A stretch of DNA of 64,000 nt from Fistulifera solaris (Eukaryota): NCBI GenBank assembly GCA_030295235.1, contig AP026150.1:62001-126000 (forward strand), written 5' to 3'. A program made the position numbers and the translations under genes. The number at the start of each line of letters is the position of its first letter. Position 1 is the stretch's first letter. Of the stretch, positions 55,124 to 62,676 are shown piece by piece. The notes below the pieces were generated by a model, which saw only the letters and a program-made list of their open reading frames with translations, made no database searches and had not been told where the DNA came from.

Positions 55124-55820
55124 AATGTGGCACGGGAAAGTTCTTGCCAGATAGTGTTGCCCTCGCCCGAGAACAAGACCGACGGAAGCGATTGACTTGG
55201 GTAATTGTAGGTGGCGGGCCAACGGGGGTAGAACTCGCTGGAGAGTTGTCTGATTTTGTTCGGGACATAACGCGTGATCGAGTTGGTCCGTATCACAGAC
55301 TGCTTGGTGAAATTCAGATCATTTTGGTTCATGGTGGCGACCGACTGGTGCAGGCGTTTGAGGAGGAGCTGAGTGCACATGCGTTATCATCGCTCAAAAA
55401 AGCAAGGTGTTCAAGTTAGATTGAATACTCGTGTCAAAGAAGTTGGGGACGGTTGGATTCGCCTCATCTCTAAGGACTCCGAAGACGATGAAGAAATTCC
55501 AATTGGTCTCTCCGTGTGGGCTGCAGGAATTGCACCCGTTCCTTTTATTGAAACGCTGCTATCCAAATTACCACCTGAGGCTAGAGGAGTGAATGGTCGT
55601 GTTAGTGTGGATAAGTGGTTGCGAAGAAATTCCAATTGGTCTCTCCGTGTGGGCTGCAGGAATTGCACCCGTTCCTTTTATTGAAACGCTGCTATCCAAA
55701 TTACCACCTGAGGCTAGAGGAGTGAATGGTCGTGTTAGTGTGGATAAGTGGTTGCGCTGTCCAACTTATTCACCTGAGACTTTTGGAAGTGTACTAGTTG
55801 TGGGAGATGCAGCAGCCTTC
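55124..55820 (+). pseudogene. Doubly truncated NDH-2 copy 4
   Basis: Ends at GDAAAF. Contains the internal duplication. Confidence 0.85.
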
Positions 55821-56527
55821 GGGGTTTGATTGAATGAAATGCTTTCTTATCATCGGAACACCTGTACGGTCTCTGGTTGTTTTATCATGGCTTCTTGGAA
55901 TCCGAGAATAGAAGGATCACTGCGGGAATATTGAGGTTGTTTTTGTATGTCGCCTATTTTCATAGCTGTACAACACTGGTAAACTTATTTGTTATAAATG
56001 GTTTTCAATTTTGTTGCTTTTTGATTTTCCTTGTTTTTTTGTTTTGCAGTAGATGTATTAGAAATGATTTAGCTGTGAAATGCAAGGTAAGACGTCCTGT
56101 AGGGATTTTTGCGGACTATGTTGTTTTTGTCTTTTTACTTAAATTGCAAGCGTCATCATAAAACAACTGGGCATGCTAGGCAAGGCTGTTCAGAAAAGTA
56201 GATAATTACGAATAGGGCTTGATTCCCGCTTCTTCCAGGGCCGGTCTACTCCCGTCCGAACGCCGCACGGATTTTTTCTTCACAGCGCTACTTAAACCTT
56301 CAACAATGTATTGAATAAACTTACTTAAATTAAATTCGCTATTGATTCTGTAAAGATCGCCGTTTTATAAGTATTTTTTATAAATATTCTGTTTGCTCAA
56401 TTGCTTCCAATAGTGGCTCACGACTCTTTTGTTAGGTCTTAAGTGTTGGCTTACCTTGGAGCTTTAACTGGGTATAATTAGTTAGCCCTAGCCTTAGTAA
56501 TGAAATACCAGGTAATAGTTTGGTCAG

Positions 56528-56741
56528 AGCGATAATAAACGAGATTCTCAAGCGAATATCACAACAATATCCGCAAACAACGATACAACTTCGAATAACA
56601 AAGTCAATCCTAACACATTAAAGATTATCTACGATTGGTGTTGCATCGCAACAAGTCATTGCAATGACGTCGCACTTTTCTACTAACTCGTGTATCAGTC
56701 AGTCACGTATACTTGAACGAGATTGCCCATTCATCTTCACT
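56528..56741 (-). repeat. 3' LTR (214 bp)
   Basis: Matches 60851-61064 except for two substitutions seen. Preceded on the minus strand by PPT GAGAGGGAG (56742-56750). Confidence 0.95.
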
Positions 56742-56835
56742 CTCCCTCTCAATCGAAGTTCATTCTCTCACAAATTCCTAAAATCCTAAGTTCTCTAAAC
56801 ATGTAATCTCTCTCTTGATATGTCATAGGATCGAA

Positions 56836-59800
56836 TCACCAACCCATCAACATCTTTCGTTTCGCTTGAAATTCCACCTTTGATAACCCTTTAGTGAAAA
56901 TATCAGCCTTTTGAAGTTTCGTATCAATGCGCTTTGCCTCAATCTCTCCTTCACGTAAATGCTCAATAAACCACCAGTACTTGCAAGCAATATGCTTCGT
57001 TCTTGGTGTCATCTTTGGATACTCATTGTTCATCATAATCAATGCTCCATTGTTGTCCTCCCATACGGTAGAAACTGTAGAAGCAGAATCTCTGTCAATC
57101 CCGAAATGAATAGTAAGCTCTTCCATCACCTCTCTGATAGGCAATAGCTGTCTCATCGCAACCGATGCTGCAATAAACTCTGCTTCTGTAGTAGAAAGCG
57201 AAATTTCCGTCTGTAACTTTGAACCCCACAACACAGGAACGTCACCAAGTGTGATGACATATCCCGTTCTACTCTTCACACATACCGGATCATTAGCATC
57301 TTCCGAATTCCACAATCCAGCAAAATCAGCATCCACAAACAAATCCAATTTCAGATCATTCGTTGGACGTATAATCATTCCTCTCGTTCTCGTAGCCTTT
57401 AAATATCGACCGATCGTCTTCAACGCCTTCTCGTACTCGCTTTCGGACAATGAGTGAATCGCGCGCATTGATGAACAGCAAATGCAATGTCGGGTCTCGA
57501 ATTTGACGCTAAATACATCATCATTCCAACAACACTCGCATACGACCAAGCTTCGACGCAATCTTCACCATTCTCATCCTTTCCAAGTGTAGTCGGGCTC
57601 GCGGGAATCTGATTTTCTCTACTATCCTGCAATCCCATCGTCGCAACAATTCGATCAATAAGCCCAGTTTGCGACAACTCCAGAGTTCCGTCTTCTTTTC
57701 GCTCAATCAATATACCAAGAAATCCAGCAACGCTCTCATCTTCGACCTTAAGCTGAAATCTCTGATATTTCTCATTGTGACATAGATCATGAATGACCAC
57801 ATCGATATCAGACAAATCGCGTGCAAAGAACAAGCAATCGTCCACATAAGTCAAGCACACAACCTTATCAGAAAGAAACAAGCACGGCTCATTCTTCCGA
57901 CTGACGAAATCCTCTGTCTTCCAATCCTTTCTTCAATGTCTTAAAGAAATTCAGTGGGCTTTGGGCGTAATCCATAAACACTCTTCTTCAACTTGAAAAT
58001 ATACCCTGGTCTATCGTGAACGCTTTGGCATCTCACAATAAACCTCTTCGTCAAGATCGGCTTGAACAAAGGCTAACGTATAATCAACCTGTCGTGGTCG
58101 CCAATCCCAAAACTATCGACATAATCAACAACAGACGCACTGTACTCCACGAAACTACCGGTGCATACGTTTCAAAGAAATCAACTCCTTCAATCTGTCG
58201 GTCTCCTCGAATACACCAGTACGCTTTGTACTTCTTCACCGTTCCATCGGGATATCTTTTGCATTTGAATGCCCAGGTACTCGGCAATATATTCGCTCCC
58301 TTTTCTATCGCCCGACCTCGGTACTTCATCCCACGGATCTAATGCTTTCAACGAATAATACTCTTCGTCCATTGCTTTCTCATAACCAATTGCATCCCGG
58401 ACCATTCATCGGCTTGATAATAGTTTGGTGTATCCTCATTGTTCGCCTTCGCAGCAAAAGCAAACGGATGCAAGTCCTCAATCAAGTTGTCATCGTCGCT
58501 GTGTTTGCATCATCGAAACATATGCCCAATAATTTCCAACAGCCAACGGTTCCTCATCAAAATCCAATGTCGACAAGAACGCGTCATTCGAAGTCAGCAC
58601 TCCAAATTCAGCTTCAATCTCATTCAACAGTCTCTCTTCTTCGCTCAAACCAAACTCAGATTTGACAAAGTTTGCATCATCTTCGTCTTCGGGACCATAG
58701 TAACGATCTCCTTTCACCGGCTTATTCGCATAATCGGGACCGTAAAACTTTCGATTCCAATGACGATTTCTTCCACTTCTCCTTGGTGGTTGGGGTTCCT
58801 CATCTTCATCCACTATGTCATCATCTCCCTCTGGAAACAATAACGGTACGTCTACTTCCACTTCATTCAAATCATTCTCCACAGCTTGTACATTTCTCAC
58901 AGGGCGGGACCAGACTCCCGACTCTGTGCTCGTCGCTTAAGAAACTCTTCTCTCTTCAACTTTTCTTGATCGGTAAGCCAATCTTTGTGCAACAGAGGCG
59001 GTTCATCATCCAGATCCACTTTGTCTCTGCTAAATGTCAACAACTCTTCCCAATTTTTAGGCTCAGGCTCGTCGGCATTTGGATTCTGTACCAACGGAAT
59101 TGTCGTAAACCTTTCATCATACACCACATGAAATTGTGATGATACTGCACCAGTCCGCAAGTTCCTTATCAAACCAATCGTACTCGCGTGGCTGCCGACA
59201 TACCCAAAAACTGTCCTCTTCGGCTTTTCGGGTTGCCAACGAGGTAACTTCTTTCCGTCCTGAACTTTCGCATCCAAAACGTAACACGGACATCCAAAGA
59301 CTCTCATTTTCTGCAAAACATCCATGTTCATTGTAACTCCTGAAAATAACTCAATGGGTGCCAAACCAGTGTCCTTTTTCAGAAGTCGATTCCAAAGATA
59401 GACTGCATAGTCCACTGCAAATGGCCACAAATCAATACTTGTCTCAGCTGGCCAGTGAATCATTGCATGTAATAGCATTGTTCTTGCACTCTCGGTAATC
59501 GTCAGACGCGTTCTCTGCAATACCATTTTGATGATGCGCTCCAACGCCAGAAAACTCGACACTCTGCCCTTTCAGCTCTAAATCTCTCATGAATTCTCGC
59601 GACTTGTAAACTCCTTGATCGGTACGGTATCCCTGAATTTCAACACCATACGATCTCGCTTCCTGCTCAAATGCATGCTTCGCTCTGAGCTGCCTCTGCA
59701 GCCGTCGTTGTAATTTGATTTCGGCACAAACATGTAACTCGTTGCTGTATCAACGAATATAGTTCCATAGCCATATTTCTCATTCTCTTGCTCTTTTCCA

Positions 59801-60480
59801 CGAAGTCTCCAATCGTCGACCACGTTCAGTTGAAGTAAACTGATCAGATGAAACGACTTGGCCTGGCTGTAGGATGCCGGCCTTCAACACGCCGTCTCGA
59901 CTCGGAATTTTCGACTGCTTTTCGGTCTCAATTGCACGTCTTTTCGCTTTTCCGTATTGACATGCAGCACAAATCGGCGGCTCGCACGAGGACGTCTTTT
60001 CATATCAGCGTAGGAATAATTGGTACCGATGCCTTATCCCCCTCTCGAACTCAGCGTGAGTCGCTGAATCCACTGAAAGTTAAAATGCCCCAAACGATCA
60101 TGAATCAACTTCAATTCACGTTGCGCGGGCGTCAGGTTCAAATTCTCTTCCAAAGTAACTTGAATAGAGCTAGGAGCCACAGCAAATGCTTGATCGACCA
60201 TCGAAGCATCACACGTTGTTGGACGTGCAATAGGAAGACGATCTTTGGTAGCGTAAAACGTAAGCTTGGACTTCGTAAATGGAAACCGGAAAACACATCC
60301 ATGTTCATTGACCATGAATGATCCATTGCCCCCTCTGGCTTCAACCTGGAAATGAACTTGAGGGCTGAACAATCGTACCTGCGCCGAAGGAACATACAGC
60401 TCGATGACGGATCTCTTGAACTTGTCCATTATCATCACGAATTTGCCACCTAACAAAGCCCCATCCTTTCACTTTCTTTG
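56836..60480 (-). pseudogene. Copia pol (INT-RT-RNaseH), fragmented
   Basis: ORF pieces 60034-60456, 58897-59562, 58084-58329, 57420-57881 and 56836-57561 carry canonical Copia motifs. Confidence 0.92.
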
Positions 60481-60836
60481 GGAACGGAATATTCCCTTCT
60501 AACTGCTCAGCGACGCTTAGAACTGTCGCCGGAGGCGCTTCTCCATCCAAATGATTGCTCAAATAATCAAACTGATCGGCCATGTTGTCAGTTCCAGTCG
60601 GTTCGGTCAACAGTTCCAACTGTTCAGGTTCCAATTCGCTCGATTCGTTTACGTCTTCAAAAGACGACAATTCGCGCTCTTCAAAGACTTCTTCCTTTTC
60701 CTCTTTACCCACTTCTTCTCTCAAAGCAGGTATTTCCTCTTGTTGCCGAGCTCGTGGTGGGTCAGCACTTCTTGTTCGGCCGTGTTGGCATTCAATATCT
60801 CGTCTATCAAAACAGATCCAGCAATCGCGCGTGAAT

Positions 60837-60850
60837 CTGGGCTCATAACC
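60837..60850 (-). promoter_or_regulatory. Primer-binding site complementary to the anticodon-arm half of tRNA-iMet
   Basis: GGTTATGAGCCCAG directly abuts the 5' LTR. Its complement CTGGGCTCATAACC is a CAT anticodon stem-loop sequence. Confidence 0.85.
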
Positions 60851-61064
60851 AGCGATAATAAACGAGATTCTCAAGCGAATATCACAACAATATCCGCAAA
60901 CAACGATACAACTTCGAATAACAAAGTCAATCCTAACACATTAAAGATTATCTACGATTGGTGTTGCATCGCAACAAGTCATTCCGATGACGTCGCACTT
61001 TTCTACTAACTCGTGTATCAGTCAGTCACGTATACTTGAACGAGATTGCCCATTCATCTTCACT
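60851..61064 (-). repeat. 5' LTR (214 bp)
   Basis: Direct repeat of 56528-56741, followed on the minus strand by the PBS. Confidence 0.95.
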
Positions 61065-61260
61065 GTCAGTGCTGGTCCAGCCCCGTCCGAACGCCGACAC
61101 GAATTTTCCCTCCTAGCGCTACGAACCTGGTAAGCCTCCGACAACTGCTATTTGATTCTGTTCAAGGCCGCCGTTGGTTCGACAACAAAGGTAGAGAGAT
61201 CCGCGACGACAATAGAACAATGATAAAATCTTGCCAAGAATGCGTTATTTGCCAACTAAG

Positions 61261-62676
61261 ATGATTTTAGGGTTTATACGGCGCGTTCTAAGTCGACATT
61301 CGGTCAACGCTTCATGCCGACCAGTACAACTGGATGGTCTGATTGCACGGCGGGGACAGAGCAATACTACTGCTCACTCTAGGTCGTTATTTGAAGTTTA
61401 CGATGATATGATTATGAAGGGGAATATACAGTCGGATCCACATCAAGTGGTTGCACTCAAAGAGCTAGAACGATTACGAAAGAATTTAATGCAGCATAAA
61501 CCTCCCCAATTCACGAAAGCGACGCCTAGCACGCCTCCTTCCATCAACAATACATCATCGTGGTGGGGGTTTGGAGCCTTATCGACAGAAGTGTTTACTC
61601 TAAAGAATCCCTTTCATGGTGTATACTTACACGGGGGTGTCGGCTGTGGCAAGACTTTCTGTATGAATTTATTCTACGATTCGATCGACAACAATTGTTC
61701 CTGGTCGAAACAGAAGGTTCACTTTCACAAATTCATGTTACGTGTACATCAAGAAATGCATGCAGCTAGAGGTAAGGGAAACGCTGACGCTATTATGCCC
61801 ACTGTCGTTAATTCGGTGGCGGCTCGTGGGGCGCTGATATGCCTTGATGAGTTTCAGGTAACCGATGTTGCGGATGCGCTTATCTTACAGCGATTATTTA
61901 CGGGCCTTTGGGACAAGGGATGTGTCCTAGTAGCAACATCGAACCGGCCTCCGCAAGATCTGTATTTGAACGGCTTGCAGCGTGCAAGGTTTCTGCCCTT
62001 CATTGATCTTCTTCGCGAAGAGTGTAACGTGGTTAGCATGGACGAAAGCGAAACGGACTATCGGTTGGTGCAAAGTTAGAATCCGGAAGTATACCGGTAT
62101 ATTTCACAAATGAGGCTTCCGAAAAGAAAGCGTTTGACAAACTGTTTTATGACTTGGTGGGAAGCAGTGCCGTGGCCCCTACGCAGCTAGAAACGTGTGG
62201 GCGAAAAATTGTTGTTCCACAAGCCACACTGAAGAGAGGTATCTGTCGGTTCGACTTTACGGATCTATGTAAAAAAAGCTTTGGGTGCAGCAGATTATTT
62301 AGTGATTGGGCAATCCTTTGACACGGTATTTGTGGAAAATATACCGACTCTGACCCTCAACGAGATTAATTGGATACGTCGCTTCATTATTTTTGTCGAC
62401 GCCATGTACGAAAGTAATGTGAAACTAATCCTTCAAGGCGCTAAACCAGCACAGGAATTGGTGCAAGTAGATAAATCTGACACGGGAACAAGTCACGATG
62501 AAATTTTTGCGTTCGATCGAACAGTCAGCCGACTGATGGAGATGTCCAGTGCATCGTACTTGAAGCGAAAATGGAAGTCACACACATCAGACAATCCTGC
62601 TGCCATGCTCTCTCAAGCTCGTGCAACAGTCTGCGTTCAACCTAGCTTGGGGGATTCTAAAGAGCGCAGGCAGTGA
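61261..62676 (+). CDS. AFG1: AFG1/ZapE-family (LACE1) mitochondrial ATPase
   Basis: GVYLHGGVGCGKT, VHFHKFM, CLDEFQVTDVADA, TSNRPPQDLY, LGAADYL, RRFIIFVDAMYE, FAFDRTVSRLMEM. Arg-rich presequence. Indels near 62075 and 62275. Confidence 0.93.

What the first reader, a model, noticed from the sequence alone, without database searches (positions are those of the whole stretch)
56523..61069. Copia retrotransposon with non-canonical 5'-AG...CT-3' LTR termini
Seen: the two 214-bp repeats (56528-56741, 60851-61064) are bounded exactly by a 5-bp duplication GTCAG outside, the PBS abuts one inner end and the PPT abuts the other. All four boundaries agree. On the element strand each LTR reads AGTGAAG...TATCGCT, not TG...CA, and keeps a short imperfect terminal inverted repeat (AGTGA/AGCGA). 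Established: LTR integrases almost always process a terminal CA-3', and detection tools often require TG..CA. Inference: this is a Copia lineage whose integrase joins a CT-3' end and that standard pipelines would miss. Only two LTR differences were seen, so the insertion is recent.
Basis: partly seen in the sequence, partly recalled or inferred. Interest (0 to 1): 0.8.

Follow-up and report, generated by a model that had tools for sequence, protein, structure and literature searches.

The report
Diatom Copia retrotransposon with AG...CT ends
This is a recently inserted, cut-down copy of a diatom jumping gene whose end repeats read AG...CT instead of the usual TG...CA, and its relatives appear to have swapped the outermost base at both ends together several times.

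Summary
Confirmed. The 214-bp LTRs read AGTGAA...ATCGCT inside a 5-bp duplication; PPT and PBS abut them. Two more full-length copies in the genome have the same ends with their own TSDs; a diverged solo LTR reads GG...CT with a TSD. Public-run contigs match both junctions, slightly short of the tool's bridging rule. This copy lacks about 2.15 kb including gag.

AG...CT is a swap of the outermost base pair, not a 2-bp shift. Two unrelated families in this genome and four environmental relatives share it. First and last base co-vary in 43 of 44 labelled elements; one further doubtful case would break the rule. A-starting elements are not one clade (AU p=0.003; at least 4 changes), but three independent contrasts are too few for significance. 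The family seems to prefer CTGAN targets (3 of 4 complete TSDs).

Published diatom and plant non-canonical Copia ends that I read all start with T; the nearest parallel is Drosophila errantiviruses (AGT...AnT, Gypsy). This scan already noted AG...CT Copia in another diatom genome. Integrase specificity is inferred, not shown. New variant of a known kind.

The parts
56523..56527 (.). Target-site duplication, 3' side (GTCAG; CTGAC on element strand)
56528..56741 (-). 3' LTR, 214 bp, AGTGAA...ATCGCT
56742..56750 (-). Polypurine tract GAGAGGGAG abutting the LTR; same register before TG- and AG-starting LTRs of relatives
56836..57435 (-). RNase H, open frame to the stop; 81% identical to protein P0002 residues 1248-1446
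57441..58497 (-). Reverse transcriptase, in several frames in the assembly; RVT_2 hit on one piece (E 1.6e-4, below gathering score). Run X1 shows other indel states at several places, so part of the breakage is probably assembly error
58903..60399 (-). Integrase region with pre-integrase and SH3 hits (both below gathering score), in several frames
60463..60475 (-). Junction of an internal deletion of about 2.15 kb relative to the C12 copy, removing gag and the start of pol; short shared letters on both sides
   Evidence: runs X2 and X5 have loose ends at 60472-60474
60837..60850 (-). Primer-binding site, 14 nt complementary to positions 27-40 of a host tRNA-Met(CAT) gene (internal, half-tRNA type), abutting the LTR
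60851..61064 (-). 5' LTR, 214 bp, AGTGAA...ATCGCT
61065..61069 (.). Target-site duplication, 5' side (GTCAG)

Best explanation
A recent, gag-deleted (non-autonomous) copy of a small diatom Ty1/Copia family whose true ends are 5'-AG...CT-3'. SHOWN: boundaries, TSDs, PBS pairing to the anticodon arm of a host tRNA-Met, PPT, other copies. INFERRED (about 0.9): reverse transcription from a half-tRNA primer and the PPT gives a blunt cDNA whose ends are the LTR ends, and integrase joins both CT-3' ends without 3' processing, with a 5-bp stagger, as Ty1 does with CA-3'. INFERRED (about 0.9): AG...CT arose by substitution of the outermost pair (T...A to A...T) in the same register. INFERRED (about 0.55): the integrase of these lineages has shifted its preference to a terminal T, which keeps the two independently encoded ends matched, on a clade-wide permissive background in which His replaces the Pro seven residues before the catalytic Glu. 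INFERRED (about 0.6): this family also prefers CTGAN-like targets.
For: Three full copies and one solo LTR with own TSDs. Same ends in two unrelated families of this genome (L061 AGTCAA...TTGACT, L078 AGTCAG...CTGACT, each with a 5-bp TSD) and in four environmental loci by PPT/PBS register. First/last base T...A in 27, A...T in 16, A...A in 1 of 44 labelled rows. A-starting elements rejected as one clade on RT-RH (p-AU 0.003, 60 rows) and integrase (p-AU 4e-51, 30 rows) trees; at least 4 changes on each. D(35)E spacing in homolog P0002 (D516, E551) and a predicted integrase fold matching retroviral intasomes for L061. HH at E-7/E-6 in 84 of 95 homologs with a readable motif, none with Pro; PFV Pro214 (E221 minus 7) starts the loop that stacks on the terminal adenine (PMC6784120, passages). 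Target sites: 3 of 4 complete TSDs share CTGA (simulated p 0.0002), 5 of 6 genome flanks start CT (p 0.0006).
Against: Only 3 independent contrasts on well-supported branches; sign test median p 0.25. Asymmetric ends integrate: AA...CA (L056, intact TSD), AA...CT, TG...GA, AG...TT, and L180 may be AG...CA (left unlabelled). The His loop is shared by T...A and A...T elements, so it does not explain the switch. No integrase column separates the two types cleanly: the best (two before the second Asp; His in 15 of 18 T-type, 0 of 10 A-type; 0.83 against a label-shuffle 95th percentile of 0.75) is not corrected for kinship, and the window family carries Arg there like 3 T-type elements. Environmental labels lack TSDs. 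Target preference rests on 4-7 sites and was noticed after seeing them. No cDNA ends or integrase activity observed.
Confidence: 0.75

Rival explanations
1. Relaxed integrase: the clade's integrase tolerates any terminal base and ends drift; the AG/CT symmetry is inherited from a few founding events rather than enforced.
For: Only 10 of 49 TSD-readable Copia elements sampled in this genome have TG...CA; AA...CA, AA...CT, TG...GA, CG...CG all integrate; Pro-to-His loop is clade-wide; independent contrasts too few.
Against: First and last base match in 43 of 44 rows across at least 4 changes, and no T...T row was seen; ends are fixed within families (20 of 20 TG...GA copies of the large family).
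Confidence: 0.3
2. Register shift: the canonical TG/CA lies 2 bp inside (AG|TG...), and the element integrates unprocessed retrovirus-like ends.
For: The left end reads CA-CT-3' on the joined strand.
Against: The right end has CG or TG, not CA, before CT; the sister family starts AACG and other AG families start AGTC or AGCA, with no TG at positions 3-4; the PPT GAGRGGGAG abuts TG- and AG-starting LTRs in one register.
Confidence: 0.04
3. Assembly error or post-insertion mutation of a TG...CA element.
For: The assembly has many indels in the coding region relative to run X1.
Against: Six LTRs of three full copies on three contigs carry the same ends; X1 contigs match the junction letters; an unrelated metagenome run (X2) covers the LTR to its CT end and goes on into a different flank.
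Confidence: 0.01

Closest known systems
CoDi elements (diatom Ty1/Copia; Maumus et al. 2009, PMC2806351; Filloramo et al. 2021, PMC8147415)
   Same: Copia domain order, 6.7-6.8 kb full length, short LTR, 5-bp TSD; non-TG/CA ends are reported for CoDi3.2, 4.2 and 4.3.
   Different: Tables S10 and S11 of PMC8147415 (read whole) list TGCA, TACA, TGTA, TATA, TTCG, TGAG, TGGA, TGAT: every motif starts with T, none is AGCT, and most non-canonical CoDi3/4 entries have 4-bp TSDs. Assignment to a numbered CoDi group was not tested.
Drosophila errantiviruses gypsy, ZAM, Idefix (PMC5408687, PMC3601003; passages)
   Same: AGT...AnT ends (here AGT...GCT; AGT...ACT in L061 and L078) and sequence-biased target sites.
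   Different: Those are Ty3/Gypsy-group elements; this has Copia order (IN before RT). The likeness is convergent.
Plant non-TGCA Copia (Tos17 TG...GA, lotus TG...CT and others; 10.1101/137141, PMC9804982; passages)
   Same: Copia elements with altered ends, including CT-3' on the right; same end types not monophyletic.
   Different: Both papers state the first nucleotide is always T; plant variants mostly break the terminal symmetry, whereas AG...CT keeps it.
Ty1 (PMC2939329, passages); half-tRNA-primed Drosophila copia and yeast Ty5 (recalled)
   Same: Blunt cDNA joined with a 5-bp stagger; PBS to the tRNA-Met anticodon arm abutting the LTR (copia/Ty5 type, recalled).
   Different: Ty1 integration depends on terminal CA-3'.

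Membership tests
Ty1/Copia LTR retrotransposon | pol order PR-IN-RT-RH | tested here: met
   tblastn of P0002 along the element and full copies; Pfam pieces
Ty1/Copia LTR retrotransposon | Copia-type RT (RVT_2, PF07727) | tested here: met
   Weak on the window fragment (E 1.6e-4, below gathering); all 120 listed homologs of the sister-family RT-RH carry PF07727
Ty1/Copia LTR retrotransposon | LTR pair, TSD, PBS and PPT | tested here: met
Ty1/Copia LTR retrotransposon | DD(35)E integrase | tested here: met
   Second D and E motifs in L010 of this family; spacing 35 in P0002; fold of the related L061 integrase matches intasomes (model pLDDT 60)
Ty1/Copia LTR retrotransposon | TG...CA termini (typical, with known exceptions) | tested here: not met
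   AG...CT
Autonomous element (this copy) | gag present and pol open | tested here: not met
   About 2.15 kb with gag missing; pol in several frames
Half-tRNA-primed Copia (copia/Ty5 type, recalled) | PBS pairs with the anticodon arm of initiator tRNA-Met | tested here: met
   14-nt pairing with positions 27-40 of a host tRNA-Met(CAT) gene; initiator status not tested
Numbered CoDi groups 1-7 | RT clusters with named CoDi reference elements | not testable with these tools
   No named CoDi sequence was returned; supplement of PMC2806351 unreadable
Errantivirus (Ty3/Gypsy group) | RT-RH before IN | tested here: not met
   IN precedes RT
Errantivirus (Ty3/Gypsy group) | AGT...AnT ends with sequence-biased targets | tested here: inconclusive
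   Ends AGT...GCT; CTGA in 3 of 4 complete TSDs, small n

The most novel reading that the evidence does not exclude
A large diatom-type Copia clade has repeatedly switched integrase end specificity between A-3' and T-3', changing both LTR ends in concert, and this family has also gained a sequence-biased target (CTGAN), converging on the errantivirus pattern. Matched TG...CA and AG...CT sister lineages would then be a natural series for finding how an integrase reads the otherwise near-invariant terminal base.
Probability: 0.35. Interest if true: 0.75.

Novelty: new variant of a known kind. Interest (0 to 1): 0.52.

Why it matters
The terminal CA is among the most conserved features of retroviral and LTR-retrotransposon integration. 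Copia lineages that join T-3' at both ends, with close A-3' relatives, give test pairs for what fixes that base. Practically, in this genome only 10 of 49 sampled Copia elements with a readable TSD have TG...CA, so motif-bound LTR annotation would undercount them.

Tried and rejected
Empty allele: the right flank has one match in G000 and none of 4 laid runs shows a joint across the element; contigs show presence, not absence, so this is open. No RNA holder listed. X3 and X5 cover only pieces. Viral contigs: 155 pattern hits, none a relative. Sequence search of the PDB with the integrase profile found no integrase (3 chance-level hits); the fold search did. Naming a CoDi group failed. Idea that the family targets a repeated element: the 56-bp flank repeat has no further copy found in G000 and flanks of the other insertions are unlike it by eye. 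Idea that A-starting elements share one integrase lineage: rejected. A single specificity residue: not found. Table S12 of PMC8147415 has no terminal-motif column (part 1 of 4 read). Literature searches for A-starting Copia ends listed no such report; I opened only the papers cited, the library lacks most subscription journals, and Repbase or GyDB entries were not searchable. The LTR_retriever motif table (bioRxiv supplement) and Additional file 1 of PMC2806351 could not be seen and may bear on novelty.
Full report
1. Observation. The window is G000:C37:62001-126000 of a 51.7-Mb, 62-contig assembly. A diatom host is inferred: a homolog cluster at 56% identity holds proteins that NCBI lists from a diatom, and earlier notes say the same. 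The repeats at 56528-56741 and 60851-61064 are 214 bp with two differences, at 56661 and 56663. GTCAG flanks both sides. On the minus strand the order is CTGAC, AGTGAAG...TATCGCT, PBS GGTTATGAGCCCAG, pol, PPT GAGAGGGAG, AGTGAAG...TATCGCT, CTGAC. The PBS pairs over 14 nt with positions 27-40 of a host tRNA-Met(CAT) gene. A 5-bp match at fixed ends has a chance of about 0.0013.

2. The family. The LTR has 9 matches in G000. They form three full copies with AG...CT and their own TSDs (window CTGAC, C43 AAAGT, C12 CTGAA), a diverged solo LTR at C5 (GG...CT, TSD CTGAC), and a C1 copy whose 3' LTR is partial and whose flanks do not match (CTACT, CTGAG). Against the 6.7-kb C12 copy the window copy lacks about 2.15 kb including gag, so it was moved in trans or lost gag afterwards. 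Four runs were laid as contigs. X1 matches both junctions without other letters but reaches only 26 and 30 letters into the LTR, under the tool's 31-letter rule, and may be the source strain. X1 also shows different indel states in pol, so part of the frame breakage is probably assembly error. X2, a wetland metagenome, covers the LTR to its CT end and continues into another flank. No joint across the element was listed, so the empty site was not seen.

3. Other Copia in the genome. I fetched 60 stretches around RNase H and PBS hits and examined them with the window and three family copies, 64 in all. 49 gave an LTR pair with a TSD: AG...CT 5 (three of this family, plus L061 and L078 of two distant families), AA...CT 4 and AA...CA 1 (sister family, RNase H 75-82% identical), TG...GA 20 with 5-bp TSD and 8 with 6-bp TSD, TG...CA 10, CG...CG 1. 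Nine had no LTR pair and six were unresolved. The sample is biased to relatives of the query. L061-like solo LTRs also read AG...CT (L204, L205; TSD imperfect or absent).

4. Relatives elsewhere. 80 metagenome and 14 genome-collection loci were fetched; many are collapsed single-LTR contigs, so ends were read from PPT and PBS register without TSD. Both ends were labelled in 25 of 94: TG...CA 16, TG...GA 1, AG...CT 4, AG...TT 2 (identical rows), AA...TT 1, and one A?...CT with an ambiguous start (L108). L173 was relabelled TG...CA after inspection. L180 (AG start, candidate CA end 610 bp on) was left unlabelled at its right end and would be a second A...A case. The PPT GAGRGGGAG abuts TGT- and AGT-starting LTRs in the same register, and other A-starting families have no TG at positions 3-4, so the change is a swap of the outer base pair.

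5. Evolution. An RT-RH tree of 60 rows (20 chosen genome representatives, 40 of the 94 outside loci with a readable end) places the window family with its AA...CT sister inside a supported clade otherwise TG-starting, and other A-starting elements in at least three further places. At least 4 changes of the first base and 5 of the last are needed; one clade of A-starting elements is rejected (p-AU 0.003), also on an integrase tree of 30 rows after dropping 5 frameshifted or redundant rows and rows under 230 filled columns (p-AU 4e-51). First and last base match in 43 of 44 rows (T...A 27, A...T 16, A...A 1), but there are only 3 independent contrasts on starred branches (median p 0.25). Direction of change is not determined.

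6. Mechanism. With PPT and PBS directly against the LTR, the cDNA should be blunt at the LTR ends, as described for Ty1 (PMC2939329, passages), so integrase would join CT-3' at both ends; this is inferred. Across the clade the integrase loop reads GAHHQNG.AE: HH at E-7/E-6 in 84 of 95 homologs with a readable motif and no Pro, whereas a distant TG...CA element of the genome keeps TPQMNG (L073). In PFV, Pro214-Gly218 stack on the terminal adenine and Glu221 is catalytic (PMC6784120, passages); the match is by residue count, not by structural superposition. A predicted model of the L061 integrase (pLDDT 60) matches retroviral intasomes. The His loop may permit varied ends but does not separate A- from T-starting elements. 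The best separating column of 334 is a weak lead only. Target sites of this family look biased: CTGA in 3 of 4 complete TSDs (simulated p 0.0002), CT first in 5 of 6 genome flanks (p 0.0006) and 6 of 7 with the X2 flank; the sister family shows no such bias and the 20-copy TG...GA family little (4-mer p 0.79, dinucleotide p 0.02). The pattern was noticed after seeing the sites.

7. Known cases. PMC2806351 (results part 1, section 9, methods part 1) reports TG/CA missing in CoDi3.2, 4.2 and 4.3. Tables S10 and S11 of PMC8147415 (read whole) list only T-starting motifs. 10.1101/137141 and PMC9804982 (passages) say the first base of plant non-canonical LTRs is always T, and TG...CT is common in lotus. 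PMC3601003 and PMC5408687 (passages) give AGT...AnT ends and sequence-specific targets for Gypsy-group errantiviruses. 10.1101/2021.07.27.453949 (passages) added nothing. Searches listed no report of A-starting Copia ends; curated repeat databases could not be checked. This scan has noted AG...CT or AG...GT diatom-type Copia in other genomes.

8. Verdict. Real, family-wide and widespread among diatom-type Copia; a new variant of a known kind. The repeated matched switch at both ends and the possible target bias are the interesting parts, and both rest on few independent events. Interest 0.52.

Noticed in passing
L035, L036, L038, L040-L051, L053, L055, L059, L060, L062: A young family of at least 20 copies with TG...GA ends (TGTCAC...GTGAGA), about 452-bp LTRs, 5-bp TSDs and PBS GGTTAYGAGCCCAG.
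   Followed up: partly
L052, L057, L063, L064, L066-L070, L079; also L071-L073, L076, L081: Copia families with apparent 6-bp TSDs and a different sequence after the 5' LTR (CGCTTCCTCTGCGC or CGCTTAT); the first looks complementary to the 5' part of the tRNA-Met gene printed, not tested further.
   Followed up: no
L032, L033, L034, L037, L039, L056: Sister family with AA...CT ends (one copy AA...CA in both LTRs); 5 of 6 TSDs contain CG against 22% of host 5-mers.
   Followed up: partly
L090 (G000:C40): Copia element with 88-bp LTRs, CG...CG ends and a 4-bp TSD, also reported by earlier notes.
   Followed up: no
window 56236-56291 and 61067-61122: A 56-bp direct repeat (75% identical) on either side of the insertion; the right copy starts inside the TSD; no other copy found in G000.
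   Followed up: partly
window 61216-62079 (+): Host AFG1-like ATPase frame (PF03969, E 5e-53) begins about 150 bp from the 5' LTR, pointing away from it.
   Followed up: no
window 55490-55756: Exact tandem duplication of about 133 bp inside a broken coding stretch just left of the insertion.
   Followed up: no
L012 (G000:C1:2455610-2461417): Family copy with a deletion from RNase H into the 3' LTR and non-matching flanks: recombinant of two insertions or an assembly chimera.
   Followed up: partly
L172-L185: Fourteen contigs of prokaryote genome bins carry these diatom-type Copia sequences, most likely binning contamination.
   Followed up: no
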